64,000 nucleotides of DNA from Bilabrum cf. latius (taxonomy: Eukaryota). This document shows, piece by piece, positions 1 to 64,000 of this stretch. The stretch is taken from contig OZ237749.1 of NCBI GenBank assembly GCA_965178125.1, positions 62,001 through 126,000 of the forward strand. Reading direction: 5' to 3'. The notes under the pieces are model-generated. The model had not been told where the DNA came from, searched no databases, and saw only the letters and a list, made by a program, of their open reading frames with translations. How positions within the stretch are numbered: the stretch's first letter is position 1; each line of letters starts with the position of its first letter. The position numbers were made by a program, and so were the translations under genes.

Positions 1-3000
1 CAGTTGCCTCGCTGAACAACTCTGCATCCAGCTGCACGGTGCTACCGGGGAGACGAGAGGCATCTGCGTCTGACAGGCCCAGCTGGTGCACCTCTGGTCC
101 AGCTGCGTGCGCTGCAGACGGGCAGGATGACGCTTTGGTATCCGGGTAGGCATCGAGCAGCCGTGCCTGCAGAAGGCCAGAAGCAGACGGGACAAGTGCA
201 GGGCTGCAGGGCTAGCCAAGCTGAGGTGCCGTGTTGGCTGTTGTCACGCGCAGCTCCACGGCCACCGAAGACACTTGCCACCCTGGCCCTGGGCCCTTTC
301 TTGACCATGCCTCTCGCACCTGAGAGGCAGTTGGGTCCTTGAGCAAATGTGCTGATACCGTTAGGTAGTCCGTCCCTGTGAATGTCGGCAGGCTGGCGTA
401 CGTAGTCTGTGCCAGTGCAAGGTTCACCTCGGTGAGCGTGCCCGCAATGGCCTTCCGCGAGGCAGCAAGTCCTCCCGGCTAGCACCCAGGGCTCCAGTCC
501 AGCTACCCGAAGGCCGAATGCCCGTGCTGCCCCGAGCAGTTCGAGAAGGAAATCTCCGCAAACTCGCTCTCGAGGACAACAAACAGAACATGCTAGCTCT
601 GCAACTACCCAGGGTACGATAGTTGGAGCCGCGTGTCTTCATCGCGGTAGTTGAACTCGATTGGTCTGCCGAGAGTTACTTGCCTCCGCTCGGGAGCCTC
701 GAAGCGCACGGCATCGTTGACCTGTGATAGTGCGACAAGCACATCCAGTGCAGTCGGCACCTACTGCGGATTGGGCCCACTCACCGACACGCGGATCACG
801 TCGTCCTCTGCCTCGTCAGGACCTTGCGCGTAGCCCACACGGAAACTGCCCGATCCAGCTAGTAGCTCCTGCAGCACGGACAGGCTTGCTCTTAAACTGA
901 GTCGATGATCTTCTAGCGTGATAGCATTCATACCGGCTGCATGGCTCACTGAAACCCCAGCAGCCTAGTCCAGCAACAGTACGTTTCCTCGACTGGCAGT
1001 CAAGTCCAAGTCAAGCATGGCTCCTCCTGATGCTCCTGCATCTGCCCACTCTAGCTAGATCGCCGGTAACATGCCCACTGAGTCTTCTTGCATGGTCAAT
1101 GACGCAGTGCTGTCGTTAGAAAACTGCAGAGAAGGGGCGTCCGGCAGCTGAGTCACGTTTAGGACAACTGCCGTACTAACATCGCCAGCCTCCTGCACGT
1201 ATGTACACACATCAGCTGAGACACCACTAGCAACAAGAAGCTCTGCAGATATGCGGACCAGCCCAGCGTAGTTCTGCGAGGGTGTCCACGCCATGGCAGC
1301 CAGCCATGCATTTGCGCACTTGCTCGTCCCTTTCATGTCCAGGACGTGCGCGCTCCCTCCCTCGCAGGAAGCCCACTCGGTGGCTCCCTCTGGAAGACAG
1401 CCCTCCTCGAAGGAGCCCACGAGCGACAGTGGACCCTCTTGCCCCCTTGCCACCGGGAGGAACTGCCCGGGCGAAATCGCCCTTGCCAGCACCCTCACGG
1501 TAACAGCCTCGAGTTGCCTCAAGCCAGACAACTCAAATAACGCACGTGCGCTCGACACCGCGAGCGAGCGATCTACGGTGGCCAAATCAACAGCGGACGA
1601 GTCGAGCACGACGGTGCGGTCCTCAGGCACACCTATGACTGGGACTCCGGGCCATGGGAGCGACTCGTTCACGTCAATTGTCAGGCGCAAAGCTCGATCA
1701 TTTCTTCGGGAGTTCACCAAATCCAGTATGACAGAGACAGACCGGGGTGTAGGGACTTGCTCCAAGCCGGGCACTTGTGTAGTGCGGTCGCCTCCACCCA
1801 GATCAAGTAAAAGTAAGGAACTTAAAACAGCTGTGGCTGCATCAGCGTACCCGCAGTTGCCTAGGTCAGATAGCACGACCGAGAGCTGGGCGTCATCCAG
1901 AATCGCATCATCTTCACATGAGACAGCGCACCTGGGCAGCATCGAATTGAGAGACTCTAGGGTGCCTCGCAGAACACCTCCGCCAGCTGCTGGCTCAATG
2001 CCAAGCGTTTCACAACCCATCCCGCACCGCATGTTTGGCACACCATCGGCACTCACCACCGTGACGCGCACTTCCATCCTCTGCGTATGCTCAACTGGGA
2101 GCATTGGAGATATGGCCGGCGGCAACACGTACAGACCACCTGCGCCCTTACCAAAGCAAAGCGAGGTGCCATCTTCGGACAAATCGCTATCCCCAAGAGA
2201 AAAGGCAGGTAGTCTGGCTCCCTCTTCTCCAAGTGAAAGGCTTGCAAAGCTGTCCATGTCTATTTCGGGGGGTTCGTTGACCTTCACAACTCGAGCCCTA
2301 AGTTCGAGACTGCTAAATAGTGTTTGGGCACTGCCATTCAAAACGACTGGCGTCACGGTCATGTCCAGATCGACATACCCAGGGCATCCGCCAGCAGAGA
2401 CAATAAGGCCATCAAAGGCGGTTGCAACTTCAGATGCATCGATGCGGAGGGCAGCAAGCGCTCGCTCAGGGGCAGCAACTTGCGCAGGCACGCCCAGCCT
2501 TTCTACCTAAGCCGCAAACTGCACCTGGATAGTTGGAGTGCAGCTGAATGCGTTTGACAAAATCATCGACGAGGCAGATGACACAGCCACGACGAGACCG
2601 CCAACCACCGTCAAATTACTTGAGTCTACTTGGATGCCAGTCAGCACCGTGGAAGATCTAGTCGCCACCACGAAGGATCCGTCAAAGCCAGCTCGTACTG
2701 CATCAGGAGTGCTCCTCAATCTGTGCGCCAGCAATGGCTGCATCGATTCATTCGAAGCCGGCTGGGCTACTGCCCCCGCACCCAGGCTGATATCAAGAGT
2801 AGGGGCATTAGTGGTGATCAAACCCATGCTAGCAGAGTCCGAATCAGCATCACCACCAAGCATTACGGCCGCACCGCCCTCCGGGGCTCCTGGGAGTGGG
2901 AGCACTTGTATTGTGAGTCCATGCGTCCCGCTGGAGGCAGCTGCCTCTAGAGAGGCGAGGGCCTAGACCATGTCGGAGATGAGGAGCCGGCCCGCCTCAG

Positions 3001-6000
3001 CAGCATCGCTAGTGGGCGGGAGTAGGCGTCCCTATACACGAAGGACTCCTGTCCTGACCGAAAGTAGAGTTGCCTGCAGCCAATGCAGGTCATCCTGGAT
3101 GGAGCCGAGCTCGCCATGGACAATCAAGCACCCCGATGCAGGGGATCTGCACGTCTCTCCCAGCCTCTAGTCGATGGCACTGCTGATCCACTGGGACTGA
3201 AGACTTACGGCAATCGGGTCGAGGGCAAGGGTGCAATCGCGGCACGCAAAAGCTAGTACCGCCTTTCTCCCGCGGCTGCCTTCAGAGCCAGCTTCCAATT
3301 CGAGACCAGATACCGTTGTTGGTGAGCTGGGTGCAAGCACAGTCGAAGCCACGCCGCTCAGCTGCAGGTACGGCTCCAATGCTAGCAGAGAACGCAAAGC
3401 AGGCGAAGTATTTGAAAGGCCGGCACCTTGCCCACGGACGAGGGCTGACGCACTCGTCAGCACGACCTGCCCTTGCATTTCATTGGCATTGACTGCACCA
3501 TCCGATTCCGGCACCATGGCGTGGATACCGATTGGCTCAATTGCATCGTGCTCTTCCACTCGGATAGGGTGTACCGCAATGGTCTCCCCGCCACTCGCAT
3601 CAGCAACCAGCACAATCAAGTGAAACGTCTCAGCACTGGATGGACTCTGGATGTGCAGGCGTGGCAACCTGCCGTGCTGTGAATGCCTTGTCGCGAGCCC
3701 CAGGGCGGATACGTTGCGAAGCAGAGATAGCTGCTCCCTAGGGCCCGCAAACTGGAAAAGCTCGCTCGCGTCCATGTTGGTACAAACCATGCTGCCACCA
3801 CAGATAGGCAGCTGTGTGGCGTGAGATCCCCAAGCCAAGCTGCTGAGAGCCTCCGCAGTGCCCGTACTACTAGCAACCTCCGGGGACAGTTCGCTGCCAC
3901 AGGCAGATGACCGACTGGTAGCCACACCGGCCTCAGATAGGCCTGCATAGACCTGAACTCGCCCGAAGACGGTGCCAGATATCGGTGCCGTGGAAGGCGG
4001 CAACACGCCCAGCAGACCACCCGAGACGGCGAAGCAGACCCCGAGATTACCGGCACTCGTTGGTCTTGGAAGTGCATTCCGCATTGCAAGCACAAGAACG
4101 CTCGCGTCCTCGCTGCCTAGGTCGGGTAGCATGGACTGCACAAACCCTGCTTGATTTGCTGGGTCTACGGGGCCCGATACAGCTACCGGCTCGGGAGACG
4201 ACGAATCAGGGTCCACAATCACAAGGCCAGGCATGTCCTGCAGGCCTGGTGAAAGCTGCCACTAGGCACCGGAACCAAGCACCTGGGAACCAGTGCTTGG
4301 TTTCTAGGCTACGCTGGTGGACCCGTTGCCAAGGAGCAGCTGAGGCGCATTGTTCAGACAGCGCAAGTAAATCAGCATAGGGGCGCAATCCACATTTTCA
4401 TCGGATTCGACGCACACGGCCGCACGCACCTCGCCGCATGCACCAGGGGCAGGATTCCATGTTCCCCACCCTCGAGTTTGCAGTGCTTTGGCTGCCTGCT
4501 GCAGAGTACCCTGGTAGACATGGTAGACCGCACTGCTGGCCGTAGGACTGCTGGAGGCTGTACCAGAGGGGAAGACAGCCGTGACGCCGCCGCTGTCCGC
4601 GAACACCATGACGTTAACGTGAGTGTCGGAGGCAGCACCTTCTCCCACGACTGAGGCTCGCACTGCTGGCAGAAGCAGCGCACCACCGTCCTCATCGTGA
4701 TACATGCGGTGGGGTCGGTGACTCTACTGCAGCGAGGCAGCAATGCATATGGCAGAGGTACAGTGCGATGAGACCATAGCCTGGGGCACACCGTCGAGCT
4801 CCAGTGAGACGGAGTGGATCGCATGGCCTGTATGCAATAGAGAGTTTATCTCCAAAGACAGCTCTGCCGTGCTAGCTGCATTAGATGGACTTATGCCCGA
4901 TAGGTCTTTCACAGTGATTGCTACGCTGCCATTGGAGCCACCAGTCAGCTGGGCCCTGGTTTCACGCAAGCAGATGCGCAGCTGGTAGAGCTCTCCTGTG
5001 CAGGACAGTCGACCACCATCCACGAAGGGACCTGAAATCTAGACCTGCTCGTTTGCACTGGTGCGAAGCTCAAACTACCTTCCTGCCGGAGCGACGATTT
5101 CCAGGGACAGGCCGGCTTCAAGCGGGATCCCAGCTCCGGCCGATGCAATCCTGAGAGGTGACCCCCCGGACGAGATCACGGGGGGTTCATAAGGGAGGAC
5201 GATAACTGTCGAAAATAGTGCGGATGAACTGGAATCATCCTGCTAGGCCCTCTAAATCCCATCCCTGTGCATGGCTAGGAGCTCCTGCTCGTCCGTAACT
5301 TCGAGCGCAGAGACACGAATGACCGCCTCCGGGTCGGCGGCCGCACGTTGCTGGACGGCGGTCGAACTGGATGGCACGATCTGCAGGCGATCCCTGAGCA
5401 TGGTCTCAACGCCAGCAATGGGCCCAGATAAGAGCACTATTCCGCCAGTGATTAAGCCACCCTAGTCGCACGATTCGCTGCTCGCCAAGGTTGGCGTACC
5501 CTGGCCAGTCCACACTCCAATGGAGACTGAGGACGAGACGTCTGCGCAAGGTATTCCGAGATCAACCGGTGCATTGTGCAGCACTGACACAACGATGTTC
5601 GCTCGAGTCGTCGGCTCTACCGCGGCCCCGTCTGCGCCCCCAAGACCAACCATCCGCCCCAGCCTGCCGACTGGCGCCCTGCCACTGCCAGCCAGTAGGA
5701 CAATCGGTCCTACGCCACGAAGCTGCCGAGGCTGCTGCATGAAAGACTCAAGTCCCTGGTTTAGCTGAATCTTGCCGTTGTCCATGGTTGCCGAGAATGG
5801 GTTGAAGGCGGCAATCAAGGCCTCAGTTCCGTTCAATGCAGAAACCAAATCGGTTGGCAGCTACTAGATGACGACGGAAGCTCGTCCGGGCGCGGGGTAC
5901 GCAGCTATCGTCACGCTGCTCAGCGCACTGACTCCCTAGGCTACGTCCATGCCCTGCTACCGGACAGATACCTGGACTATCGTCGGGTTGAAACCACTGG

Positions 6001-9000
6001 CTTGCCCCTGCCGCTGGATACTAATCAAATCAGTAGCCGCTGGCCCAAGCGCGACGGGCTCAGTTGAGTGGACAGCTAGCACAGGGAGGCTGCCTGCTAG
6101 GGACGGCGAGCCGCCGGACCGAAGGACAACAGCAAAACTGACCACTCCGGGCTGTGCTTGGCCTGATAAACGCCGAACATTCACTGAAGCAGGGTCGATG
6201 GACGATATTGTCTCCAGGGCAGACTACACTTGGGTAGCTGATGGGACCCACGGTACGAGCGATGACGCGGCAGGTCCTTCGACAGTTTCGACCTGCAGCC
6301 TGAATCCACCTGACTCGATCTCGCTGCTGATTGCCGGTGCTGCTGCAAGCTGCACTGTGCTTGAGGCTCCGGTAGCGTTGATTACCGCGGCTTGCAGAAC
6401 GTCTGCACTGTCGCACCTGAGCTGGACCAGCGTGTATCCGGCACACTCAGCCGGGTGCTCTGAGGTGCTCGCGACTATGCTGCAGCCAAATCTCTCTGCT
6501 AAAGTAGCATTATCGCCAGGAGCCGTTGCTCCACCGATTAGCTACGCAATCTCCTCGCCAGTCTAACTGCTGTCGATCCGCGAGGTGTTGAAGAGCAAGC
6601 CCTGGACCGTCAGCCCAAGCTGGAATGCGAACGTCAAATTGCAAACGGTAGCACTAGCTGAGCCATGATGTTGCACCAAGATCTGAATCTCGGGACTCGG
6701 TGCCAAAATGGTCAAAAGCTGCGTGTCGCTGAACTCTGCAACCTGATCTCCTGACGGGATCTCAACGGACACGTCCCGCAGCCATCGCTGTACCTAGGCT
6801 GCCATCCCGGTGACGGATAGAGTCTTCCTACAACCGCGGAGACCCGCACTTCGAGTCACGCAATTCCCAGTCGTCGTCACTTCGGCTGTCACACTGGCCG
6901 TATGCTCAATACTGACAGCCGGCAGCCTCACTGCTGTCCCTGGGGCGCCGATCACAATCGCATCCGGGCGAGATGTGCTGGCGATAGGGACTCTAGGCAA
7001 GTGCACCGCAGGATACTAGACCGATAGCGCTTCTAGACGAGGGCACTCGTCATCGCTGTAGGTACCTGATCCGCACAGTCGCCTGCGCCACTTTGTCAAA
7101 ACGGTGCCATCCACCTTGACGCCATCTTGGATTGACACGAGAGGCGAGATGCCTTGCGAGGAAGCGTTTACCACTGATACAGAGGAGCTGGACGACAGGC
7201 TGCATTCTTTGCCTAAGCAGCTCTTGGAATGCACCACAACGGCATTGACCATGCTCTGTGAAGCTGGCATTAGTAATAATGCACTTGCAGTCGCAGCCTG
7301 CAGCCCAGCTCTTGCCCCTATCACAGTGATACTTTGGCTGGCCGGTACAACGCCAACGCTGGTTGATTTGGATGCGACATTGGACACTTGTGCCGTGGAA
7401 TTCATCCACCCGGCTAGAGCAGCACCACGTACCTGCCAGACTACTGCCACAGAGCCACTCTCTGAATCCCACAGCTCGCGTCGTCGCACGAGCAACACGC
7501 CATTCTAGCCCGTAACAGGCCGAGATACAGCAACAGCCTGCAACGAAAGCTTCTCCTACCGTACCAAGGAGCTGCCTGGCGCCAGTGCTCTGGCTACTTC
7601 GTGCGCCGATGCATCCCCACCCCATCGCGCCACCTCGCCTGTGCCAGCCATCCTAAGCTCGATTATGCCAGAGGCAGGGTGCTGAGCCACTTGCAGGGCC
7701 TCTGCATGCATGCTGACCTCTGCTTCCCTTGCAATGGGCACAAAAAGCTCGGTTCCTCCGAGGGAATTCAGTGCGATACTCGTCACAGAGCAGTTGTAGC
7801 CTCCCGGACATGCAAGTCCAGAGCAGGTAGACCGAGCCGCATTTTGATCGTAAAGCAACCCATCCACGCCATCCGGAACATCGAAACAAGGCACGTCGGA
7901 CCCTCGTGCGTCTGATATCATCGCATTGTCCATGTCAGGGCCTAGGAATGTGACTCTCCACTCCACCCCGACGGCGACATCCAACCCGTCCCCGCTAGAG
8001 CCTAGCTCGTGCCGTTGCACAGTATCGAAATCAAGCTCTCCAGTGAGTGTCCTTGAGACCTATATGGGGCCATTCCCAAGGCTGGACGTGCTGCAGCAGC
8101 TGGAATGCTACTAGGATGGCATCGAAGTAGCCAGCGACCACTCGACGTGGGCCGGCTCCCTCAGCGAGTTGAGCGCCTGTGCAACGACGGTTGCGCTTGC
8201 GTCCAGCGGCAGCGAGGCTGTGGTGATGCTCTCAAAGCCGTTTGGGAGAGTAAAATCACCGGCTGGTACAGTCTCAAAGACCGATGCAAAGTACTCTGTG
8301 CTCCCAATCGGAGGCACGGTCACCTAGAAAGCAAGGGCTTCCTGGGGAGAGTCACCACTCCGTGCTGAATAGAACCCGCTGGAACCATCTCGCTCCGTAG
8401 TGGCGTTGAAGCTGCACCCAGCCCCATAGCTACTTGAAAGGGTTGGGGTGGGCATATTCCCTAATTCGTGGCTGAAAACGATCCTCCATGCAGCTCGCGT
8501 GGTGTTCCAGCCCACTGCGCTCACGAAAGGTCCAATGGAGGGCGACTGCCGCAGCACCGACTTGAGCTGCTGGGCCGAGGCACCCACAGTGACTCCATCC
8601 ACATTTCCAATCCCCTCGAACGCAAGGGACACTGTCCCACAAGGGGCCGACAGGTCCCAGAACTGCACCTCGGACGTAAGTCGGGCCGTCGCCACGAGTC
8701 GCTGGACTGCAGGCACATGGGGAGAGCTGCCCGCTGTGGACCGGATGACTCTAGCCACCGAGTTATACTCCGAAGACCTTATCTGCAGCAGCGGCTTGGG
8801 CGTCTCAAAGGCGACCGTCAAACCGAACGAGCGACCCTATCCAATGAGCTTTGTTTGTGAGCGCACCAAGCTCTTGCCGGCTTGGCGAACAATTGCACTG
8901 CACTCCTCGTCAAAGCAGCCAGGGGCAAATTCGACTATGAGGTTTGACACGACGGCTTGGCCTACCGGCCAGCGCAGTACCGTAGCTACCACCGCATCAA

Positions 9001-12000
9001 TCGGCGCATCCAAGTCTTGTTGCAGCTCAGGAACGGCAGATGCTGGGACATCTCCGCCAGTTGCTGACAGTCTAGTTGGCAGCGTCTCGTTTGAGCGGAA
9101 AGGGGCCAGGTTCACGCGGGTCCCATCCACGTCGAATGAGAGGAAGAACGAACCGGGGGTGAACGACCCATTCGCGTGTGCAGGCTGCACCACCACGTGC
9201 CACAGTGCCGATACATCGTCCACATGCGCGCAAAGGGTTGCATGAGAGAACTGAGCTGCGCTCGACACAATGTGAGTCGGTTCGATCGAAACCCCGGATT
9301 CCAGCTGCATGGAGGCCTGCAACGCTCTCACAACGCCAATACCCGCGTTGACACTGGGCTTGAACGACAGCAGGCGGTCGTACAACCCTATCGAGACGAA
9401 GGACTCGCTATCGATCGCAGCCGGGAACTGGGTGGCTGATGAGTTGTCGACTCGCCGCGCTTGCAGCACTTGTCTGCCTGCGGCACGCTATGATGGAGAT
9501 GCCTGTGCATGGCCTGTAGTGCATTGCAGCACCTGCACATCGGCAGCAATATCCTTGGGGGTGTCTGCCAGTACCACAGTGAATGCATCCTCCGGTTTGG
9601 CGCTGCTAGTCTGGGCGTACGACACAGAGAATGATGAAGCAGCATCCTTTGAAGCAGTGCTTGCCTAGGGAAGCACGAGGACTTCTGCGCTATCGACTGT
9701 TGCGCTCCACGAGGCCAATCCGTTTGAATCCATGTCAACTTCGCAGGCACCCAGCGGGACGATGCCAGATCCATCTGTGACCGGCAGTGCTGGCGGGCAT
9801 GCAACAGGCAAGCCATTGGCTGAGGGCCTGCGTGGGTGCAGACTAGCTGCGCGTGCATGCACCGCAAGGTACGTACTGATGTCCAAAGAAAGACCGCTGT
9901 CTGCTGCTAAGGTTTCGTTGACCGGTGCGCCCGCCAGCACTGCCTCCCACGCGCTGTATGCCGCCGAGGACGAACTAGCGGAGAATACGAACAGCTCTAT
10001 CCGTGAGGATGTGGCACATGACTGCAGCTCTATGACAATCTCGGCAGCAGCGCGGGCAATAGCCGCCGCATTTCCGAGAACAGCGACCACGCCACCACCT
10101 GGTGCAACTCTGGATCGCACACCGGCCGAGACTCCTCCAAGCACCGCTGCGAGGCCTGGGTGTAGCATGCCTAGCACTGCCCACCGTGGACTTCTTGTAG
10201 TCTAGGCCTAGAGGTGCAGCGCCCTGAGCTGGATCGCACCATTCGAGCACGACAAACTAGCGGGCAAGCTAGCACTCAGCGCCGTTTCTGGCTCGGTAAC
10301 ATCCGCCGTAACGTGCAGTATATCTGATGGCACGCCCAACACAAGGCCAGCTTGGAGAACCACTGTACCTTGAGGTGCCCCAGCAGGCGCACCCACGCTG
10401 ATAGAAAGCTGCTGCAGGACAAAACCTAGCTGCAGCGTAGTGCCCTGGGCCATGAGCTGGCTGGAAGACACGAACTTGATCGTACTTGAATTGGCTGCTG
10501 TTCCAGCGTCAATGGCGTAGCCAGTCGGCGCTGCAACACGGAGCATGAACTGCGCTGTAGATACGTCAGGCAACGGTGGCATGGCAGGGATCCGCATGCT
10601 GAAGCCATTTAATTGTACATGCGCTTTAAGCACATCGTTAGAGGACGGACCACTCCTCGACGATACCACATCGACGAAATCTAGAGAGATCGTGCTGCCA
10701 TGGGGAATAGATGCGTTGATGCACGAGCATGAAGCCCCACTCCTTGGCCTACACGGCGAATTGCTGCAGTCTGACCATACTCCCGGTGCTTGCGATGCGA
10801 TCCTACTGACGAATTGAACAGGTGCCGGAGTTGCTGGCACCACGCTCACATTCGCTTGGCCCGCCTCTTTCCAAGGACCGGAACCGTGCCTCACCGCAAG
10901 TACGGCGTGCAATGATATGTTTCCAAACGAATGGGCAAACAAAGACGTCGACGCATTCTACAGAACTCCCGCGGCATCTGATATCGACCTGCAATCGAGC
11001 ACAAGGGGCAACCCATCGTGCGACTGCACCGTGGATCCTATCGACACTGCCACGCCAGTCACACCTGTGTTCCGTGGGGCGTATGTCTGAACGATGCCTT
11101 GGCTCAGCCAAAGCGCGATTGCAAAGTGCATCCCGTCATCACGACTATTGTCTCCCGCGGCAACCAGGTTGCCGTCCACGGTCATGGCCAGTCCGGCCGT
11201 AGTGAAATCGCTCGAGCCTACAACAATGGAGTCTTGTCCCGCCACAACCCCGTAAATACGTTGGCGCGCCTGCAGCGTGGCCGTTGCACTCGCAGTGCCA
11301 TGAGTGGGCGCAACGTGCGACAGCAGCCGAGTGCTGCTCCACAACGCTACAGCATCCTTCCTTTCGTTCTCGCTCAGTAGCGAGTCCAGCCCTGGAAAGT
11401 TGTCGTGCATGGTCACAGAGAGCAGCACGGCACTGTTGGCAAATGCGCTTCGGTGCGTGAGCTCTAGCCAATTCACCTGCAGAAAAGCCCGCATCGCTGC
11501 GAGGGACCCTTCTAGGGTCACCAGGCTGCAGGATGACTGCTGCACTGCAACGCCCTGAAAGCTGGTCGGCAGCGATCCCAGGCATACTGAGTCTCGCGGT
11601 TCCGACTCAAGAGAAGCAGTGAATTGGACGAGCGAGAGGGGGCGCAGCACAGAGAGCTCCTGGCCCGCAGGCACACTCCAAGCAGCAGCATCTGGCTTTG
11701 AGTCCTCGTCGTCAAGGAGAACGCGGATAGACGCACCAGCGCCGCTGACGACTGTCCACTGGAGCAGCGACACATTCGCCAAGGTTCCGGCCCCTTCAAG
11801 GCTGACGGAGGGCGCCCTGTTCCCTGGGAGGGCCACCAGTGGGAGCTGCAGGATGGTTGAGTTCGGTACTGTGTCGCCATCGCCTGGTGCGATAACTGCG
11901 CCAACATGCACATGCAACTCGCCCCTGTAGGCTGGCGAGTAGGACGCGCATGCCAAGAGCGAGTCGAGGAAATCTGCAACCCCAGCCTGCCCTTGGCAGG

Positions 12001-50378: not shown

Positions 50379-51293
50379 TCACCCAGACCCGACCTGCAGC
50401 AGCCGCATGGCCCCCGTCCACCCTTGTCCGCTCTCGACTACCCAAGCCGCCAGCAGTGCCGCGATAGCAAACCAAGGCGCGCTGGGCACGAAGTCCCTCC
50501 ACCCCTCGGGCCCCCCTGCCCACTGCTCTGGGGTCCGGTAGAGGGCCGTCATGGAGGAGACGAGGGAATGGGGCAGGGCAGAGGGGTCGAACTCGAAAAG
50601 GACCATCACCGCGATCCAGGTTGCAACCGCCAGGCCGGGCATGCCCGCTTTCTTCTCGTCCACGAGGCTAAAGGGGGCAACGCCTCGCTTGGCCAGGCTA
50701 CGGGCCAGCGACACGATCACGCGGCCCAGCAGGTACATGAGGATCTAGTGACTCACGGCAGAGGGGTGTCGCCACACGAGCCACGCCCCCATACCACCGG
50801 CGATAGCGGCTACGACCGCGTTGCTGGGGCGCATCAGGCTGCCCATTGCCGGGCTTGCCCCAGGCGACTTTGGCGCTGGCGCCGATGAGCTCGATCGACT
50901 CTGCGTGTGCCTCACGCGCGATGGAGTTTCCAAAGTACTGGGTGATGTTGCAGCACCAACGTTCCCAGTCTTGCTAATTTTGGGCTCGGCGCCTGCTGTT
51001 CGCGGCGCTTGCAGTCGAGGTGCGGGTTGCCCTAGCACCCTCATAAGCAAGTTCGCGAGCACAGTTACCGCCTTGTATATCGCTGCAAAGTATGCCAAAT
51101 TTCTACCATGTTCAAACGTCATTTTTGCCACGTGTAATGCGTTTTTGCGCAGTCCTTTGGACTAGCGATACAGCGCGGTTATCACCACTGCGTGCGGCAG
51201 CCTTAGCTTTGTCCCAATGAGAGCTCCTTGTCGCAGGGCTCGTGCTAGCACTAAACATAAGTGCCGAGATGCCGCTACCGGGCTAAACGACAT
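50379..51293 (-). CDS. PXMP4: Peroxisomal membrane protein 4 (PMP24, Tim17 superfamily), ~304 aa; 2 in-frame TAG (50745, 51162)
   Basis: GALIGTKLRLPHAVVITALY, TFEHGRNLAYFAAIYK, IAGGMGAWLVW...SH*ILMYLLGRV, WIAVMVLFE, LVSSMTALY match the family. Three track ORFs in one frame; TGA stop. Confidence 0.9.
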
Positions 51294-51363
51294 GATTTGC
51301 GGGAGGAATGGTGTACGATTCAGGGCTATCATTCCGGGGCGACCAACCCGGAACAAGGACGCA

Positions 51364-51823
51364 TCACTCCTCCTTCTTGTCCTTCTTGGATTTCTTTGGG
51401 GGACGGGGCAGCGACATGGTGTCGAACCTCGCGCCAAGCACAAGCTGCCTCAGCCTGCGAGACACGGCCCTCCCCCACGGCCCAGTCGGGAGCGCCCCCC
51501 CCTGGTAGCGCCCTGCCCCCCCCTGACCACTGCCACCCAGCACGACTGCCCTGTCCTCCTCTGGGAGTGCACGCAGCAGCACCCCGCAAGCCTCCATGCA
51601 GCACCGCAGCCCCCTGGCAGCCGCCGAGCTCGCCTTGGCCTGCATCTCCAAAGCGCCTGCCGACTGGTCCGCCCCACTGGACAAGCCCGCGTGCAGCACT
51701 GCCCAGAGAACAACCAGCTCGCGGATAGACACGTACCTCAACTCTTCTCCACCAGATCCCACCAGTGCCTGCTTCCTGCCGCCCTCATTCTGGCCTGTCT
51801 CTCCACCGGCGCCTGCAGCAGAG

Positions 51824-51896
<73 letters not shown>

Positions 51897-53956
51897 CAGC
51901 CACGCCTGCGCCCCGCCGGAGCCGCTCGAGTTCTACCTCGAACGGAGGCAGCGCAAAGATCGGGAGTCCGTCCTCTTTGCCCACCCTTGGAAGCCCCTCT
52001 GGCCACTGCCCCTTGGAGGCAGGGGCAGAGAACCCCCGGAACAGGGCCTCCAGGGCAGCACGCCTGCCCTCCGTCGAGAGCTCCGGCACACCGCCCTTGC
52101 CGCCCGCCTGGCACGCATCGCACAGCGCCCGCACCTGCTCCTCACTCACGCGATTCACATCCCCTTCCTCCTCTTCCTCCTCGCCATCTCCGATTCCCAC
52201 GGGCAGCGGCTGCAGCGCGGGCACCTTTTCCTCCTCCAGGAAGAACGACACGAAGCGGTCCATCCCCACGTAGCCAGCCCGGTCCTCGTCCAGTGCCATG
52301 AGCAGCCTGACGGCCCGCCCCAGCGGCGTGCGGTCCACCCTGTGGCCCATGATCCGATCCGTGACCTGCTTGACCTCCCCGTTTGTCAGATGCACCGGGT
52401 ACCCCTTGCGGAGGACTGGGTCTGCGTCTAGGCTCAGCCGGGCGGCCCTCTCCAGCGCCTGCACGGAGGGCCCCTTGCCCTTCTTGGCCTGTTTGAGGGC
52501 CTTCCTGGCCCTCTTGCACGTATCCAGGCAGTCCATACCCATGGACACATCGAGGAAGCTCACATGGGAGAGGGGGACGCCCATGGCCTCCGCCATCTTG
52601 CGCTGCACGAGGTCCCCGAATGCGTACGGAGTCTGCTGCGACTCCGGAAGCTCCTTCTCGGGGTCCACCACGGGTAGGTACTGCACGGTCATTGTGTTGA
52701 ACACGCTCAGCAGCATCCGAATGGTGAGGGGGAGCCCCCTGGGCCCGTCGTTCACCCAAGAGGGGTCAAAGTATCTGTACCGGTACTGCATCACCACCGG
52801 CTGCACGGGCTTCATGGGCAGAAAGGCACCGTACTTGAAGCTCTGCAGGGCCAGCCCGTTGCCACAGGTACCCTCGGGGAATATCATCAGCCTCGTGACG
52901 CCCGGCCTCGGGTCACTGGCCCTGGCGATGATCTTCTCCGTGATTGTGACCGGCTTGTTCGGCTGCTCGTCTCCTTCGCTGCCGCTGCTGCTGCCAGCCT
53001 TGCCAGGCTATGAGCTGCCCTTCTTGGCCTCCCTTTTGCCGCGGGTCTGCCGGTCCTTCTTTTGTTTCTTCTTCTCCGCCTCCTGTTTCGCTTTCTTCTT
53101 CTCGGCTCCTCTGTCAATCCAGAGGGCCCCTACGGCCCTGAACACCAGCCCGGCGAGAGGCTGCGGTGAGGACGCTTGCAGAAAGAGATACGCATCAAAT
53201 ATGTTAGCAGATTCACCGCGCATCAGGCATGGCGCAACCTCATGCGCTTGTAGGAGCTGTTGCAGCCGAACCACTACGGGAAGTGGCTTGATCTTACGAC
53301 GTTCTTGCTCTCGATTCTGACGGCGGGCGCAGCAATGTTGGAGAACAAATATACCGGGTCCATGAAGCATGTGTGGTTGCCCACCAAGATGGGAGCCTGC
53401 TCGCGGCTTGCGATGGTGCCCTTGGTCTCTATCCAGTAGAACCCGCCTGTCCACAGCTGGGCTCGAACAATGCCCTTCGCCACCTCCATCACGGCCAGGC
53501 GCCAACCAGAAAGCGGTTCTCCGCTGTCTTGATCCGTTCCCAGAGTAGCAATCCAGCAAACAATTCCACATGAACCGACGCACAGTCTGCGGTGGTCGAT
53601 GTTGGAGGATTCCGCAATGCGAGTGGCAGATAGTACAAATGACAGCCAACCTCTTGTGTGATCGTACCGCAGAAATCTTACATTGTCAGAATCACGCGAA
53701 TCAGCAATACTGGAAACAATACAATGCCCTGCGGGAAGGTGCACAACACGAGGAATTGGAAACGAGGACAGCAAAGTACTCCAGAAAACGTTTGTCCCAC
53801 GCGCGCTTGGTCGACTTTTCGCACCTTGGCATAATCAAGTATCGTGGCATCCCTTGTCCTGTTCCGTTGCGTGTCGATTGCAGTCATTGGAAACGTCGGC
53901 AGCAATTTCTCAAGTTCTTGGCCAAGCTCCATTGCCGATTCGCTTCGAGATTCCAT
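51364..53956 (-). CDS. LPCAT: Lysophospholipid acyltransferase of LPCAT type (PlsC domain + degenerate EF-hand); introns 53161-53297, 53587-53681 and probably 53729-53824; 1 in-frame TAG (53008)
   Basis: NHTCFMD (NHX4D), IFPEGT, FKYGAF...PVQPV. GTAAG...CGCAG introns with matching phases restore ESKNV|PLAGLVFRAVGALWIDR. The C-terminal DKKEE (KKxx ER-retrieval signal) sits directly before TGA. Confidence 0.88.
51821..51898 (-). repeat. (GAGCCA)13 coding microsatellite encoding a Gly-Ser repeat in LPCAT
   Basis: Perfect hexamer tandem read directly from the sequence. Confidence 0.9.
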
Positions 53957-55712: not shown

Positions 55713-55725
55713 CCCCACGCAGACC
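55713..55725 (+). repeat. 13-bp target-site duplication CCCCACGCAGACC; further copies at 56033-56045 (identical) and 57315-57327 (two C>T changes)
   Basis: The three copies bracket both retroelement fragments exactly. Confidence 0.75.
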
Positions 55726-56032: not shown

Positions 56033-56045
56033 CCCCACGCAGACC

Positions 56046-58244: not shown

Positions 58245-61200
58245 TCACTCGCTCTCCTCTGACGACACGTACGAGTCCATGCTGCTGGTCTCGCTGCTGG
58301 TCTCGCTGCTGCTACCATCGCTGGCGATCTCTGCCTCTATGAAATCTTCTCTGTCTGAAGCTGCATTGCCCGGTACCGGACACCCAAGCGAAGCCGCCAT
58401 AGCTCTCTGGACGGGAGAGATAGCCTTAGCATCAAAGGTCCACCGCATGTGTTCCTTTAGCCGGTCTCTAGCCCTCCCTTCTGCTGCGAGCTTACCTGTT
58501 TCATCGCTATCCACAATGGAGCGCAGGTTGCTAAGCAGCAACTCGAAGGAATCTTCCTCTCTAAGGCTGTGCAGTCGGTACGAGCTTGCTACCCTGTCAA
58601 AGAAGGCCTGGTAGGCCTTGCCAACACCAAATTTCGACTATGCCAGTTCCAGCGCAACTTGTAGCGCGCGAAAAATCTCCCCCGCAGAGCGTTGTCCTGC
58701 ATTGAGGGCTTCAATCTGCTCCTCGACAGCCTCGATGTGCTCCGAGGAGCCCGCCCCAGACGCACCAACCACGTCTTGGACGTACTGCCTCAGCCCACGA
58801 TACGCAATCCCCACCTGCCCGGTGCTGAGCTCATCAGGTTCATACACGCCTTCCCCATCTGCAATATCAACCATCAGCCTCAAGACGCGCACGTAGGACT
58901 TATGGGACTTGCCGGCAGCATCGAACACCTGCTACATGTGTCTGCTAGCCGCCTCAAAGGGTTCACGCCGCATGCCCATCTTCTTCATGCTCTCAACCAC
59001 ACTATCCAGGGCGTTCATGGCACCATCCCCATGAGGGCCGTCAATCTATATACGAATTGCAAGCCGCTGCTGCAGTGCATCTAGTTTGGGTCGATATATG
59101 GAAGAGTGGGACGCGCGACCGCCAGCATGGCTACAGTCTTCAACCGACGTACTGTCGCCATCCTCATCTTCATGGTCATCGACTTCGTAATCCTGCAACT
59201 CTTCGTCATCCTGCCTGCCCTCGAAAAATTCTGCGGTGAGTCCGAGCGCCTCGGCGTGCTCTTCAGAAATGTCGCCGTACTTTCCAGCCACATCTGTGAC
59301 AAATTGCCGCACTAACGCTGCTGCCTCGCCCCGCATGCTAAGACCACGTAGCGATTCGGCAGTCCATCTGATGACTTTTTGATGATCGTTGCTGAACAGC
59401 CCAGCCGCATCACGGAAATGGCCTTCCACTCGGTGCGCGAACTTCTCTGCCTCGCCGGCTTGGCCTCGTTGCTCGGCAGCGCCGAAAACTTCTTCGATCT
59501 ACATTTCCATCGTTTGCCAGCTCGGTCGTTTAACTTCATCGCTTATCTGGGCCAGTACCTCACGAGTCGCTCGGCTGACCTGCCCTGCATCGCACAGAAG
59601 CCGCACCAGCGTGCCGACGGACGTATCGCAGCGCATTGTTCCACGGCATGAGGCCTCAAGCGACATCATCTCTTCGTGAGCTGCAACAGCTTCAGTGTAT
59701 CTGCCGTCGCGATTCAACTGCTCTTTCAAGTCATCAAGGGCCATGATCAGGCTGCTGGGATCTCCACTGCTTGCGTGCTGCTCTCTCCCGCTCTCCACGA
59801 GCTCTCCCAGCAAGGGGATGACTTGATCGAATCGACGAGCTCGCTTGAGGACCTTTATCAATATCCGCCGGCTGGTATCTGTCTGCTTTGATGCGAAGCC
59901 GAATCGCTCCTTGCACAACTTTAAGTGCTCGGCGGCTAGCTCCTCGGCGCTGGGCACATCGGAACTCTAGGCTGCACCGGTGCCCGAATACGGTGCTTGG
60001 GCAGCATCATCGCATTCCAGAGGGCCCTCCTGCGAGCTGCAGTCGCTCTCAATCGTAGAATCTGTGGTCGAATCATAGTCGACTCTACCACTGTGTCTTC
60101 TATTTCCAAGCAGTTCGACAAGCTGGGCCAGCAGCTCCAGGTGCTTATCCCCACCCCTGTCATTTAGTCCGAGCACCTCTACGCAGCTCCTAACGGCCGA
60201 CAAGTGGGCACCGTTCTGCAGCAGCTATTCTTCTTTCTCACTCCTCACCAGGATTGCATCGAAATGCTACTAGCTGCCACGGCCGTGCATTTCTTCCGCC
60301 CTGCGCTCTCGATCCCTGTATCCATGCAACACCTCGGCTTTGCCCCCCTCTCTATGAACAAGCAGCCCCTCGACGTAAGCCTATATTCGCATGTACACGG
60401 AGCCACCTGGACCAGCGGTCTTGCCTTTCTTTGCAAGCGACGATAGTACCCTGCGATACAGCATGAATACTTCTTCGCTCTCAGCAACCCCATCTATACG
60501 ATTTGCTGCCCGCACCATGGCAGCCAGGTGCGGGATACTTTCCGACCCGTGTTTCTATGCTGCTGTTGACACTATGATGTGGATCTTGTCTAGTGCCCAC
60601 CTCACCTACTCTGTTTCAGTTTCATCCAGCTAGTCCTACACGAGGTAGGCCACGCAGTCTACCTTTAGGACAGAGGTCGTAACGTCTTGACGCAGCTGGG
60701 ATGGGCTTGGTACAGAACGAGGACTTTTCTCTGCTGCCAGCTGGGAAGAATCTCGACTGGCCACCACAAGGTCGTTGCTTTTATCATCGCTAGTAAGCCC
60801 AGCACAGTACTCGTTGTAATCAAGATCGTCGAACAGCACGGCTCCGGCTGCCACCTCCAGTGCGTACGTGACTGGATGCGTTCCGTCGTACATGTCGTAA
60901 TATAGCAGTTCGGCTCCCTCCTCAAAGCATAGATCATTGTCTTTCCACCACGGGAAGAGAGCAGTAACGCAATCGGCGTAGGCCTCGACCGCCCGGTCCG
61001 TGTTGCCGAGTCGATGCAAGTCATCGATAACTTTGATGAGGACCGCTAGAAGACCTGAAATGTCGCCTTCCTGGGCATTTCTGTCCTACTTGAGAGCGAC
61101 CTGACACATGCAAACTGCTTCATCTAGCATTCCCACTTGCAGCAAAATAAGTGCCGCGATGTGCCACGATGCGTATCCAACAGAGGCATAGCGGTGCTAG

Positions 61201-64000
61201 AACTCCCACTCCGCGTTGTCCTAGCAAGGCTCAGCAGTGGAAGCTGCAACCGCTGCCAGGGCTTGGGCCTCTGCCAGGCTAGCTTGGACGCGCCAGGATT
61301 TCTGCCGATCCTCCATCATGTCGCGTACATCATTCAGCCTACTCACGGTCCTAGCCATCTCGATCATGCGGTTGAGCAGCTGTTGCTCCGAGGTGCCTGC
61401 CACTCGCTGCACGTGGGCGAGTTCCCTCAGCATCGAGGTAAACCCTGTGACTAGTGCGCCTGCTAGCACCACCCCGTCTCCAGTGTGCTTCACGGCCGAC
61501 TGGTCTTAGGCGTCCATCACCCCGACGGCCGTCTCGTCACGTGCATCATCAAGCATCGACGAAGGATCGCGCGGTTGCTCACCTGCGACTGCATCTGCAA
61601 CACTGGCTGGTTGCTTTGCTGCAAGGTGGTCGTCTGGCCCAGGACCGTGCAGACAAGCCTTGTGGGACTGCTCCCAATCGGATACGACTGCCGATACTGC
61701 ATCTACAGATTCGTCGGACCACTCGATTGGCTGCAGCCCTCGGCAGGCGAAACCTCTTGCCAACACGCAGCAAGCACGCCACTTCATATGGGCCGGTGCA
61801 TCGTCCTTGAAGCCCTTTTCACCCTTCAATCGAGAATCTCCAGACGAGATGACAGCAGCGAATGCGATCGAGGTAGTGGAAGAAGGGGCTGGCATGGAGC
61901 ACGCCGCGATCGCGGGCGCAAGCAGCTGCTCCCAACCGTCCTCATCATCGAGACTTCCCGAAGGACTAGCTTCGGCGTTTCCTGCCTGGTCACTGGCGCC
62001 TGCAGCAAGTACCTGATACAGCAGGCCTACATGGCGCAGGTTCAGCCCGTGGCTGTGCAGTGCGCGCTTGATAGCTCGTCGGAGACTGCGAGCATCAGCG
62101 CGAAGTGGCCCACCATGCGCTGCACTGCCACTGGAAGTCTTGGCTGCATTGCGAGAATTCCTTAGCTATCCAAGCGCTGCGCATGCAGACGCTGCAGCTT
62201 GTTGCAGGTTTGTTGGTCCAGTCAGAAGCTCGCAGACAGCAAACGCCCGTCGTTTCTCAGCCTCCAGCGTCTATGGAGTGCACCGACCTAGCATGAAAGC
62301 ATCAGGGCTCACTCTGTCAGGAACATCTACCTTGTCTGCTGCAGCGAGTCGCTCCAGGTGCTTCTTCACGTCCGGCCGAAGCATGCAGGTCAAAACGCCA
62401 GTCCCGCCGAAGTACCACGCAGGACAGGATGCGACGAAGACTGCACGCTTGCCCGAGCTGTGCCTGCCGTGCATGACCACGCAGCCGCACCCCCGATGCA
62501 CCCCAACAATGCAGACCTCCGCGCCCTTTCTGTCCGCTGCTGAGCTGGTCGACTGTAGAACGCCCTCTTCGGAAGCCGCTGCAGCGCTGCAAAGATGCTT
62601 GGTCGGGCTCCACACGCTCGACACAGCGTCGGCAATGGCCTTAGCAGAACCGCCCCCGGCGTCGAGGCACCTCTTCAGCGATGCCGGCAGCCGGGCATGG
62701 AACATTCTAGGAGCCCACGATGCCGTTTCCTCCTCTTCCTCCACTCCAAATACAACAGGTGCTGTGCCGGGGTCTTTCTTGGCTGCCTGTATCCAGGCCA
62801 TGTCTGGGATCAGCAGCCGGTGCGTGTCCAGCACCACCCTCTCCCCAGTGCCGAGCTGGTGGACCTCCACGTCGAACGGGAGCACCTAGGCGACACCTTC
62901 CGGCGCGACCGGGCCATCGTAGCAGCGGGCTTGGGGAGAGCCCCGATAGAACTCGATGACTGTGCCAAGGTTAGCGCCTGATCGAAGGACTAGATCGGAG
63001 TGGTTGACCTTCCCGACCTCTTCACTGACGCTCGAGTCCGGATTCTAGAATTCCTCCTCCTCATTGGAAGCTGTGCTATCCGATATTGCATCGTGTGACT
63101 CTTGCGGAGCGCATGGATCCGTCAATCGGCTGATGCACAACGGCGACAGGCCCATGGCTCGCAGTATATCTGCAGTGGTTGGATAGTCAGTCCGCCGGTC
63201 CAGAGCCTCGAGCACCTCGCACAAAGTGGCTTCAGCTCCCGTTTCGGAGTCCTTTTCCAACACGTGCCTACTTGCATGTCCATCTCGGTCCTCAATGCCA
63301 GAATCACCGGGGCCACTTGCAGCCGTGCCAGCTGCTGATTCGACCGCGGCTGTGGCTAGCCCACTACTGCCAGCATCATCACCCGCAGCTGAGACAGGCT
63401 CCACCTCAACCCAGTGCTTCACCCAGCAAGAGGCACTCTAGTAGCCCCCATCCAGAGCCTTCAGGTGGAAGTGCTCGGCCAGGGGCAGCACCACGGCCTC
63501 GTCCTGCTCCTTGTCAACGTGCATCGTGTGGCCGCCGTCTGCAGAGCCGCAGCACAGCGTTGACTGGCACATCCACGACTGTCATCAGCGGGGTGTTGAA
63601 GTGCACGGTGTCGATCGCGTGCACGGCCGCCGCCGCGTTCACCTCCAGCTTGGTCGCTTTCGCCGCCAGCTCGTCACTCGGGTAGATGCCCAACCCATTG
63701 TCGGGAATCTTAAGGAATAGCCCGTGGCCTTCGTGCAGTGCCTTTGTGCCTCCTGCCATGCCGGAGGGGGCGGTGATGATCTTGATGCCCGCATGCAGCA
63801 CCTCGATGGAGCTGCCTTCGGCTGCGTGACGCCGCATGGCGGCAGGAAGGAGCAATGCGGCCTCCACCGCATCCTGCCTAAATTGATCCCCTACGGCTAG
63901 GATAGTCGCTGCTCTGGCCTGCGCTTCATACTTGTCTGCGGCGATGCGTTGCTTGGCGGCCACAAGCGCCGTCCACGGCGACCTGCCGGCTGGGCCCGTG
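58245..64000 (-). pseudogene. Large helical-repeat (TPR/kinesin-light-chain-like) protein gene, probably degenerate; 5' end beyond the window
   Basis: Ten track pieces from 58245 to 63422 share one frame joined by TAG, with one in-frame TAA at 61506 and a frame change near 63560. TPR-like segments include GRYTEAVAAHEEMMSL and LGNTDRAVEAYADC. Confidence 0.55.

What the first reader, a model, noticed from the sequence alone, without database searches (positions are those of the whole stretch)
1..64000. Non-standard nuclear genetic code: UAG is a sense codon, most likely glutamine
Seen: 9 of the 10 complete host genes, plus the partial giant gene, carry in-frame TAG. That includes about 55 in the giant gene (with back-to-back TAG-TAG at 5861-5866 and 8108-8113) and 10 in the HECT ligase, with no frameshifts and conserved domains continuing past each TAG. 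No gene ends in TAG. Known family motifs (recalled, not aligned) point to Gln: PXMP4 SH*ILMYLLGRV versus NSQINMYLLSRV; LACS KRP*L versus KRPQ; RLE RLSVAA* versus RLSVALQ; MG*E*S as an MGQEQS myristoylation start; and TAG right after a signal-peptide cleavage site (VAA|*PS). Established: UAG-only reassignment is rare in nuclear genomes (e.g. the fornicate Iotanema spirale, some ciliates). Inference: this GC-rich, intron-containing genome does not look like those lineages, so it may be an undescribed independent origin.
Basis: partly seen in the sequence, partly recalled or inferred. Interest (0 to 1): 0.97.

Follow-up and report, generated by a model that had tools for sequence, protein, structure and literature searches.

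The report
Protist that reads TAG as glutamine
This GC-rich piece of a protist nuclear genome, probably a relative of the flagellate Cafeteria, uses the stop codon TAG as an ordinary glutamine codon, which looks like a new and independent origin of a rare change in the genetic code.

Summary
A 5,877-codon frame holds 55 TAG but no TAA or TGA, and the HECT ligase frame holds 10 TAG. Reading TAG as sense lengthens the longest open frame from 1,149 to 5,877 codons; reading TAA or TGA as sense leaves it at 1,149.

Spliced transcript contigs from three runs in two other studies match the DNA and keep the TAGs. They are therefore not introns, edits or assembly errors.

The amino acid is glutamine.
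- TAG falls on columns that are Gln in 143 of 150 PXMP4 homologues and 89 of 120 acyl-CoA synthetase homologues.
- A syntenic metagenome contig from a diverged relative (L001) also has in-frame TAGs. Of 30 TAG sites aligned between the two species, 8 face Gln against a 2.9% background. Gln is the best fit by 16 log-likelihood units.

All 14 long frames end in TGA (12) or TAA (2).

A single-gene tree places the organism with Cafeteria, sister to oomycetes. Six literature searches found no nuclear code change in stramenopiles.

The tRNA-Gln(CUA) and eRF1 could not be examined, because no genome is held. The code itself is already known; the lineage appears to be new.

The parts
2..17632 (-). Partial giant gene, open at the window edge: 5,877 codons, 55 in-frame TAG, no TAA or TGA. 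TAG-TAG pairs lie at 8108-8113 and 5861-5866.
   Evidence: No Pfam family and no internal repeats by blastp.
27501..38444 (+). Frame of the giant HECT ubiquitin ligase with 10 TAG, ending in TGA. The TAG at 37491-37493 lies inside the HECT domain.
   Evidence: Pfam HECT E 1.3e-49. Transcript contigs cover 34000-38488 with 0 differences.
38663..41425 (-). Long-chain acyl-CoA synthetase gene, three exons (41425-41387, 41244-40966, 40846-38663). TAGs at 41417-41419, 41411-41413, one in a low-complexity insert, and 38732-38734 (KRPXL). Ends in TGA.
   Evidence: Pfam AMP-binding E 6.5e-76. Introns are seen as joints in three RNA runs. Gene model. Column tally.
41585..47677 (+). 2,030-codon frame of unknown function with 5 TAG. 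Conserved in L001 at 40% identity over 2,105 columns, with the same C-terminus. Ends in TGA.
47799..50213 (-). Frame of a probable secreted protein with 2 TAG, one at 50052-50054 just after the hydrophobic N-terminal stretch. This gene is absent from the syntenic contig L001.
   Evidence: RNA contig 48920-50107 has 0 differences.
50379..51332 (-). PXMP4 (peroxisomal membrane protein 4) gene, 317 codons. TAGs at 51162-51164 and 50745-50747. Ends in TGA.
   Evidence: Homologues are named PXMP4 by their sources. Weak Pfam Tim17/Pmp24 hit, E 0.0045.
51364..53900 (-). Lysophospholipid acyltransferase-like gene with three RNA-verified introns (53161-53297, 53587-53681, 53728-53823). One TAG, in a low-complexity stretch.
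17960..19114 (-). TLC-domain protein frame with 3 TAG. Ends in TAA, followed directly by TGA.
21263..24733 (-). 1,156-codon frame of unknown function with 3 TAG. Ends in TGA.
25653..27113 (+). UBA plus PUB domain protein frame with 2 TAG. Ends in TGA.
58245..63581 (-). Two frames in the same register (61506..63581 with 5 TAG, 58245..61505 with 16 TAG), separated by one TAA. Possibly one gene with an intron at 61582..61460.
   Evidence: No transcript data were laid here.

Best explanation
The window is nuclear DNA of a GC-rich, intron-bearing protist in which UAG has been reassigned from stop to glutamine. UGA (mostly) and UAA still end genes. TAG behaves as a third, minor synonymous glutamine codon, about 14% of Gln codons, and swaps freely with CAG over evolutionary time. 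At least one diverged relative shares the trait, so it belongs to a lineage and not to one strain.

Shown here: TAG is in frame, is transcribed unchanged, falls on Gln columns, and is not seen at any gene end.

Inferred from what is established for other UAG-only lineages (PMC5304391, passages read): decoding by a dedicated tRNA-Gln with anticodon CUA, which cannot read UAA, together with an eRF1 that has lost affinity for UAG. The heavy use of TGA as terminator fits loss of TAG as a stop before its capture; that step is also inference.
For: (1) Frame statistics. There are 55 TAG against 0 TAA and 0 TGA in 5,877 codons, while the off-frames carry 109-126 TAA+TGA. Only TAG as sense lengthens the frames.

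(2) Transcripts. Contigs of runs X5, X6 and X7, from two studies other than the source, carry the spliced form of five GT..AG introns that the DNA run X4 lacks. They cover the TAGs of HECT (37491), LACS (38732, 41411, 41417) and the secreted protein (50052). Only one difference (34092, in X7) is listed over the 20 kb.

(3) Deep columns. Window TAG in PXMP4 falls on Q in 143 of 150 homologues. Window TAG in LACS falls on Q in 89 of 120. An L001 TAG in LACS falls on Q in 80 of 120.

(4) Close relative. P0127 (69% identical) has Q at both PXMP4 TAG sites.

(5) Relative contig L001. It is syntenic for 4 genes and has its own in-frame TAGs: 17 in a 1,898-codon frame with 0 TAA and 0 TGA. Of 36 TAG sites inside the ortholog alignments, 6 face gaps. 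The other 30 face Q 8, R 5, A 4, G 3, L 3, S 2, E 2, V 1, P 1, M 1. The Q background is 2.9% (binomial p 1.5e-6). Q is the maximum-likelihood residue, with R next at -16.2 lnL. In conserved context, 8 of 14 sites are Q. Seven of the 8 partner codons are CAG and one is CAA.

(6) Gene ends. The 14 long frames close with TGA (12) or TAA (2). The LACS and PXMP4 C-termini coincide with their homologues' ends. In L001 a TAG three codons before the shared TGA end is read through.
Against: - The TAG inside the HECT domain aligns to E, A, E, D, D in the five solved HECT domains shown, so that column points to an acidic residue and not to Gln.
- The second PXMP4 TAG column is variable (S 30, R 28, K 27, Q 7 of 150).
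- 22 of the 30 reciprocal sites are not Q. Some sit in conserved context (R twice; V, G, E and M once each). This is about what the measured Q-to-Q retention of 0.37 predicts.
- No tRNA of any kind lies in the window or in L001, and no genome is held. The suppressor tRNA and eRF1 are therefore unobserved.
- No peptide evidence exists.
- The frames were defined by TAA/TGA, so with only 14 frames occasional termination at TAG cannot be excluded.
- All transcript evidence is from assembled contigs, which hide rare variants.
Confidence: 0.9

Rival explanations
1. UAG is a sense codon but is decoded without a dedicated CUA suppressor. For example, a near-cognate tRNA-Gln(CUG) with altered anticodon-arm architecture could read it, helped by a weakened eRF1. 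This would parallel the tRNA-Trp with a 4-bp anticodon stem that reads UGA in Blastocrithidia (PMC13092985, abstract seen in a search listing).
For: Nothing here separates this from the dedicated-tRNA model. No tRNA gene lies in the 64 kb window or in L001. The amino-acid outcome (Gln) is the same.
Against: Known and predicted UAG-only cases are explained by tRNA(CUA) (PMC5304391 and PMC11687900, passages read). At about 14% of Gln codons, with TAG-TAG doublets, decoding has to be efficient.
Confidence: 0.12
2. UAG is ambiguous: sense inside genes but also a terminator in some contexts, as in Condylostoma or karyorelict ciliates.
For: Only 14 gene ends were seen, and the frames were delimited by TAA/TGA by construction. 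A minority of TAG-terminated genes would therefore have been missed.
Against: - No frame needs a TAG end.
- The LACS, PXMP4 and 2,030-codon gene ends at TGA agree with their homologues or ortholog.
- TAG is read 3 codons before the stop in L001 and 24 codons before the stop in LACS. A position-dependent terminator would not allow this.
Confidence: 0.07
3. UAG encodes another amino acid, with glutamate the most plausible given the UAR-to-Glu codes of peritrichs and Blastocrithidia.
For: The HECT-domain TAG aligns to E/D in 4 of 5 solved HECT domains. E is the second residue in the LACS column (14 of 120). Two of the 30 reciprocal sites are E.
Against: E is 23.6 lnL worse than Q over all 30 sites and 16.8 worse over the 14 conserved-context sites. 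The PXMP4 column has no E among 150 sequences. Partner codons at the matched sites are CAG or CAA.
Confidence: 0.02
4. Artefact: the TAGs are assembly or sequencing errors, lie in unrecognised introns, are edited in the mRNA, or the genes are pseudogenes.
For: None was found. Only the general caveat applies that contigs, not raw reads, were laid.
Against: The sequence is identical in a DNA run and in spliced transcript contigs of three runs from two other studies, with the TAGs retained and only one listed difference in 20 kb. A second species shows the same pattern. Frames of 5,877 and 3,647 codons free of TAA and TGA are not pseudogenes.
Confidence: 0.01

Closest known systems
UAG-only to Gln nuclear codes (NCBI table 15 logic): the fornicate Iotanema spirale and the ciliates Protocruzia tuzeti, Hartmannula sinica and Trochilia petrani. 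Source: PMC5304391 and PMC11687900, passages read.
   Same: UAG alone is reassigned, to glutamine, and is widely used inside genes. UAA is not a sense codon. The predicted decoder is tRNA-Gln(CUA).
   Different: - The lineage is unrelated: LACS groups with Cafeteria and oomycetes.
- The genome is GC-rich (0.58-0.70) and has spliceosomal introns.
- The preferred terminator here is TGA (12 of 14 frames), whereas the phyllopharyngean paper reports UAA as the preferred stop.
- The tRNA and eRF1 were not seen here.
UAR to Gln codes (NCBI table 6): many ciliates, Hexamita, ulvophycean algae, Streblomastix, Amoeboaphelidium. Listed in PMC11687900, passage read.
   Same: A stop codon is read as glutamine.
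   Different: Here TAA is absent from 5,877- and 3,647-codon frames that hold 55 and 10 TAG, and reading TAA as sense extends nothing. UAA and UAG are therefore decoupled.
Rhizarian exLh and the TARA phyllopharyngean MAGs, UAG to Leu (PMC5304391, PMC11687900).
   Same: UAG-only reassignment, with UAA kept as a stop.
   Different: The amino acid differs. Leu faces TAG at 3 of the 30 reciprocal sites and does not rank among the eight best-fitting residues.
Soil giant-virus genomes that read TAG as Gln, noted earlier in this scan (e1-5483482, e1-5483516, e1-5483507).
   Same: The same code variant, and their hosts are unknown.
   Different: Those are viruses. This window is cellular, with spliced introns and peroxisomal, lipid and ubiquitin housekeeping genes. 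I tested no link between them.

Membership tests
Nuclear code with UAG = Gln and UAA/UGA = stop (table 15 type) | In-frame UAG inside conserved protein-coding genes, present in the mature mRNA | tested here: met
   55 and 10 in-frame TAG in the two longest frames. Spliced transcript contigs keep the TAGs of HECT, LACS and the secreted protein unchanged.
Nuclear code with UAG = Gln and UAA/UGA = stop (table 15 type) | UAG positions correspond to glutamine in homologues | tested here: met
   Q in 143 of 150, 89 of 120 and 80 of 120 homologues at three conserved columns. Q at 8 of 30 reciprocal sites against a 2.9% background, and best by 16 lnL. One HECT column is acidic instead.
Nuclear code with UAG = Gln and UAA/UGA = stop (table 15 type) | UAA and UGA are not sense codons | tested here: met
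   0 TAA and 0 TGA in 5,877 codons. Reading TAA or TGA as sense does not lengthen the top frames. One TAA between two same-register frames can be explained by a 123-nt candidate intron, which is unverified.
Nuclear code with UAG = Gln and UAA/UGA = stop (table 15 type) | UAG no longer terminates genes | tested here: inconclusive
   The 14 frames end in TGA or TAA, and three ends agree with homologues. The sample is small and the frames were delimited by TAA/TGA.
Nuclear code with UAG = Gln and UAA/UGA = stop (table 15 type) | A tRNA-Gln with anticodon CUA | not testable with these tools
   No tRNA in the window or L001, no Rfam match, and no whole genome held.
Nuclear code with UAG = Gln and UAA/UGA = stop (table 15 type) | eRF1 N-domain changes (GTS, NIKS, YxCxxxF region) that weaken UAG recognition | not testable with these tools
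   eRF1 is not in the window, and the organism's proteins are not in the protein collection (the best LACS hit is only 59% identical).
Ambiguous stop/sense codes (Condylostoma type) | The same codon terminates when it lies close to the mRNA 3' end | tested here: not met
   TAG is read 3 codons before the conserved TGA end in L001 and 24 codons before the stop in LACS. These are only two cases.
Stramenopiles, near Bicosoecida (placement of the organism) | Proteins group with stramenopile orthologs in a tree | tested here: inconclusive
   One gene only. In the quick ML LACS tree the window falls in an 11-row clade with Cafeteria roenbergensis (SH-aLRT 98), sister to oomycetes (99). The named PXMP4 hits are Phytophthora and Hemiselmis. 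There is no rRNA or multi-gene data.

The most novel reading that the evidence does not exclude
This is the first nuclear genetic-code change in stramenopiles. It is a clade-level UAG-to-Gln reassignment, shared by at least two diverged species, in GC-rich Cafeteria-like heterotrophic flagellates. It arose independently of fornicates and ciliates, probably after TGA took over termination and TAG fell out of use as a stop. Such flagellates would also be candidate hosts for the metagenomic giant viruses that read TAG as Gln.
Probability: 0.55. Interest if true: 0.85.

Novelty: new member of a known kind. Interest (0 to 1): 0.78.

Why it matters
Codes in which UAG and UAA have different meanings are rare. 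The 2024 paper I read lists one fornicate and three ciliates for UAG-only to Gln (PMC11687900). They are informative because eRF1 has to tell apart two codons that it normally reads together.

A further origin in a different supergroup, in a GC-rich genome that ends genes mainly with UGA, gives an independent replicate. It can be used to test whether codon disappearance precedes capture, and which eRF1 changes recur.

There is also a practical side. Gene callers using the standard code will break most genes of this organism and its relatives; here the longest frame falls from 5,877 to 1,149 codons. Their proteins will then be missing or fragmented in databases.

Genome and transcriptome runs already exist, so the tRNA, eRF1 and proteome questions can be tested directly.

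Tried and rejected
- Whole genome: none is held, so no genome-wide tally, tRNA search or eRF1 search was possible.
- tRNA and RNA-family scans of the window and L001: nothing found.
- Earlier findings of this scan by place and by sequence: nothing on this genome.
- Full-length HECT search: only 4 hits, and only in the HECT domain, so 9 of its 10 TAGs stay uninformative.
- LPLAT exon search: 3 hits, swamped by low-complexity words.
- Internal repeats of the giant protein, as a self-alignment test: none at E 1e-3. It also has no Pfam family.
- TLC-domain protein against solved structures: only chance antibody hits, so its TAGs remain untested.
- No run on record as RNA was listed by the look-up of sequencing runs. 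The runs guessed to be RNA proved to hold spliced contigs when laid.
- PXMP4 TAG sites: depth is present in the covering bins of X5-X7 and no difference is listed, but the covering pieces were not among the rows shown. I count this as weaker support.
Pfam had found nothing there.
- Literature: searches returned no stramenopile nuclear code change. The bicosoecid paper PMC6723347 mentions UAG only for the mitochondrial code. Supplementary files were not consulted.


Full report
**What is in the window.** The 64 kb are GC-rich (0.58-0.70 in 4-kb windows). No whole genome is held for them. With TAG read as sense, the window holds a partial giant frame of 5,877 codons (2..17632, minus strand) and a 3,647-codon HECT ligase frame (27501..38444, plus strand). 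About a dozen further frames follow.

Pfam recognises several of them:
- a long-chain acyl-CoA synthetase (LACS), AMP-binding, E 6.5e-76;
- the HECT domain, E 1.3e-49;
- a TLC-domain protein;
- a UBA+PUB protein;
- a TPR protein;
- an acyltransferase.

A 317-codon gene at 51332..50379 (minus strand) is a PXMP4 homologue: its relatives are named 'peroxisomal membrane protein 4' by their sources. These are ordinary cellular eukaryotic genes.

- The giant frame has 55 TAG, 0 TAA and 0 TGA. Its two off-frames have 26/71/100 and 17/40/92 TAA/TAG/TGA. In-frame TAG is therefore as common as off-frame TAG, while the other two stops are excluded completely.
- The HECT frame has 10 TAG and a single TGA, at its end.
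- As a control I recomputed the longest open frames under four codes. The standard code gives 1,149 codons. TAG as sense gives 5,877, 3,647 and 2,030. TAA as sense gives 1,149, and TGA as sense gives 1,149.
- The TAG-TAG doublets and all five quoted motifs sit at the stated coordinates.
- Of the 14 long frames I looked at, 13 hold TAG.

**The TAGs are in the mRNA.** One run search and one laying of contigs were allowed.
- Runs X1-X4 (organism label A) hold the stretch fully. X5 and X6 (label B) and X7 (label C), from two other studies, hold 55-88% of its sampled words.
- On 34000-53999 the DNA run X4 covers 34000-42462, 42532-51808 and 51908-53999 in three pieces, with no differences and no spliced joints.
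- X5, X6 and X7 all show five joints with GT..AG ends on the minus strand: 40846-40964, 41243-41384, 53161-53297, 53587-53681 and 53728-53823. They are therefore transcript contigs, although their records do not say so.
- These contigs cover the HECT TAG at 37491, the LACS TAGs at 38732, 41411 and 41417, and the TAG at 50052.
- Only one difference from the DNA (34092, in X7) is listed over the whole 20 kb.
- This excludes assembly error, RNA editing and hidden introns for these sites. For the PXMP4 sites, depth is present and no difference is listed, but the covering pieces were not among the rows printed.

**Which amino acid: deep columns.** With TAG kept as X, so that searches were unbiased:
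- LACS found 1,479 relatives, of which the best 120 were aligned. The TAG in KRPXL falls on Q 89, E 14, V 7, D 4 of 120. The other TAG in that alignment lies in an insert opposite gaps.
- PXMP4 found 427 relatives, of which the best 150 were aligned. The TAG in SHXILMY falls on Q 143, N 2, T 1 and 4 gaps. The other PXMP4 TAG lies in a variable column (S 30, R 28, K 27, Q 7).
- Against Gln, the TAG inside the HECT domain aligns to E, A, E, D, D in the five solved HECT domains printed. That column is acidic or variable.

**Which amino acid: a second species.**
- The best PXMP4 hit, P0127 (69% identical), has Q at both TAG sites.
- Its 13.2-kb metagenome contig, L001, is syntenic with window 38.6-53.9 kb. 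It carries the acyltransferase, PXMP4, the 2,030-codon gene and LACS in the same order. The secreted-protein gene is missing.
- L001 has its own in-frame TAGs: 17 in a 1,898-codon frame with 0 TAA and 0 TGA (off-frames 5/22/20 and 4/25/37), 6 in the acyltransferase frame, and 1 in PXMP4 upstream of where P0127 was called. The relative therefore uses TAG as sense too.
- Within the six ortholog alignments there are 36 TAG sites, 9 in the window and 27 in L001. Six face gaps, and none is TAG in both species.
- The other 30 face Q 8, R 5, A 4, G 3, L 3, S 2, E 2, V 1, P 1, M 1.
- Q makes up 2.9% of the aligned residues (binomial p 1.5e-6). Using substitution frequencies measured on the same alignments, Q is the most likely meaning. 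R follows at -16.2 lnL, A at -22.8 and E at -23.6.
- Among the 14 sites in locally conserved context, 8 are Q. The measured Q-to-Q retention of 0.37 predicts about the observed share.
- Seven of the 8 partner codons are CAG, one transition from TAG, and one is CAA.
- One of the L001 TAGs sits on a LACS column that is Q in 80 of 120 homologues.

**TAG as a synonymous codon.** In nine coding segments I counted CAG 464, CAA 117 and TAG 96, so TAG is 14% of presumed Gln codons. The share ranges from 4% to 29% among genes and is highest where CAA is also common. No TAG site is shared between the two species, which fits rapid synonymous turnover.

**Termination.**
- The 14 frames end in TGA (12) or TAA (2), and three L001 genes end in TGA.
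- The LACS and PXMP4 ends coincide with those of their homologues.
- The 2,030-codon gene and its L001 ortholog end at the same residue. In L001 a TAG three codons before that end is read through.
- This argues against a position-dependent stop, but the sample is small and the frames were delimited by TAA/TGA. Occasional TAG termination is therefore not excluded.
- One TAA separates two frames in the same register (61506..63581 and 58245..61505). A candidate GTGAG...CAG intron of 123 nt (61582..61460) would remove it. No transcript data were laid there.

**Who is it.**
- The organism's own proteins are not in the protein collection; the best LACS hit is 59% identical.
- The best named LACS hit is Cafeteria roenbergensis (55%, 606 bits), followed by oomycetes and fungi at about 50%.
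- In a quick ML tree of 64 sequences (57 top hits, 6 further named ones and the window), the window lies in an 11-row clade with Cafeteria (SH-aLRT 98). That clade is sister to oomycetes (99). The window is sister (91) to the subclade that holds Cafeteria. The careful search did not finish.
- Named PXMP4 relatives are Phytophthora and Hemiselmis.
- A stramenopile near Bicosoecida is therefore the best reading, but it rests on one gene.
- The three studies label the source organism differently, so labels should not be trusted without 18S.

**Mechanism.** TAG is shown to be translated as Gln in effect. The rest is inferred. A tRNA-Gln(CUA) would read UAG but not UAA, as argued for Iotanema and the phyllopharyngeans (PMC5304391 and PMC11687900, passages read), together with an eRF1 that has lost UAG recognition. 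A near-cognate decoder is a live alternative. The dominance of TGA as terminator in this GC-rich genome suggests that TAG became rare as a stop before it was captured; this is inference only.

**Comparison and novelty.**
- UAG-only to Gln is a known code. PMC11687900 (passages read) lists Iotanema spirale, Protocruzia tuzeti, Hartmannula sinica and Trochilia petrani.
- This case matches that code in every feature I could test. It differs in lineage, base composition and preferred terminator.
- Six full-text searches found no nuclear code change reported for any stramenopile. The one bicosoecid paper that mentions UAG concerns the mitochondrial code (PMC6723347).
- The library omits most subscription journals and I could not open supplements, so prior description cannot be excluded.
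- Earlier notes of this scan describe soil giant viruses that read TAG as Gln and have unknown hosts. The present lineage is a conceivable kind of host, but I tested no link.

**Verdict.** This is a real, transcribed, lineage-level UAG-to-Gln reassignment in a probable stramenopile flagellate. It is a new member of a known kind, and worth following up with the existing read sets.

Noticed in passing
window 38600-53900 and L001 1-13194: Metagenome contig L001 is syntenic with the window (acyltransferase, PXMP4, the 2,030-codon gene, LACS). It lacks the secreted-protein gene at 47799-50213. Ortholog identities range from 40% to 84%.
   Followed up: partly
window 58245-63581 (-): Two long frames in the same register are separated by a single TAA at 61506-61508. 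A candidate 123-nt GTGAG...CAG intron (61582..61460) would join them into one gene of roughly 1,700 codons with 21 TAG. No transcript data were laid here.
   Followed up: partly
window 40846-40964, 41243-41384, 53161-53297, 53587-53681, 53728-53823 (-): All five transcript-verified introns are short (95-142 nt). They start with GTGAG, GTAAG or GTGCG and all end in GCAG.
   Followed up: yes
window 34000-53999 (runs X1-X7): Runs from three studies, carrying three different organism labels, hold essentially identical sequence (one listed difference over the 20 kb laid, G>C at 34092 in X7). Either the labels differ in resolution or this organism travels as a co-cultured or contaminant flagellate.
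   Followed up: no
window 38444-38663: The HECT gene (+) and the LACS gene (-) converge with only about 220 nt between their stop codons. One transcript contig of run X5 bridges both genes.
   Followed up: no
window 2-17632 (-): The giant gene product (more than 5,877 residues, rich in Ala, Ser, Val and Gly) has no Pfam family and no internal repeats detectable by blastp, which is unusual for a protein of this size.
   Followed up: partly
window 53900-58200: This lower-GC stretch has several overlapping frames on both strands with in-frame TAGs and no Pfam match.
   Followed up: no
window-wide coding segments: The TAG share of presumed Gln codons varies from 4% to 29% between genes. It is highest in the genes with the most CAA (the giant gene and 58245-61505), as expected for a synonymous codon under the same base-composition pressure.
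   Followed up: partly
window 51364-53160 (-) and 41585-47677 (+): Long dipeptide-repeat stretches, (GS)n in the acyltransferase and (GA)n in the 2,030-codon gene, coincide with places where run contigs break (42463-42531, 51809-51907).
   Followed up: no
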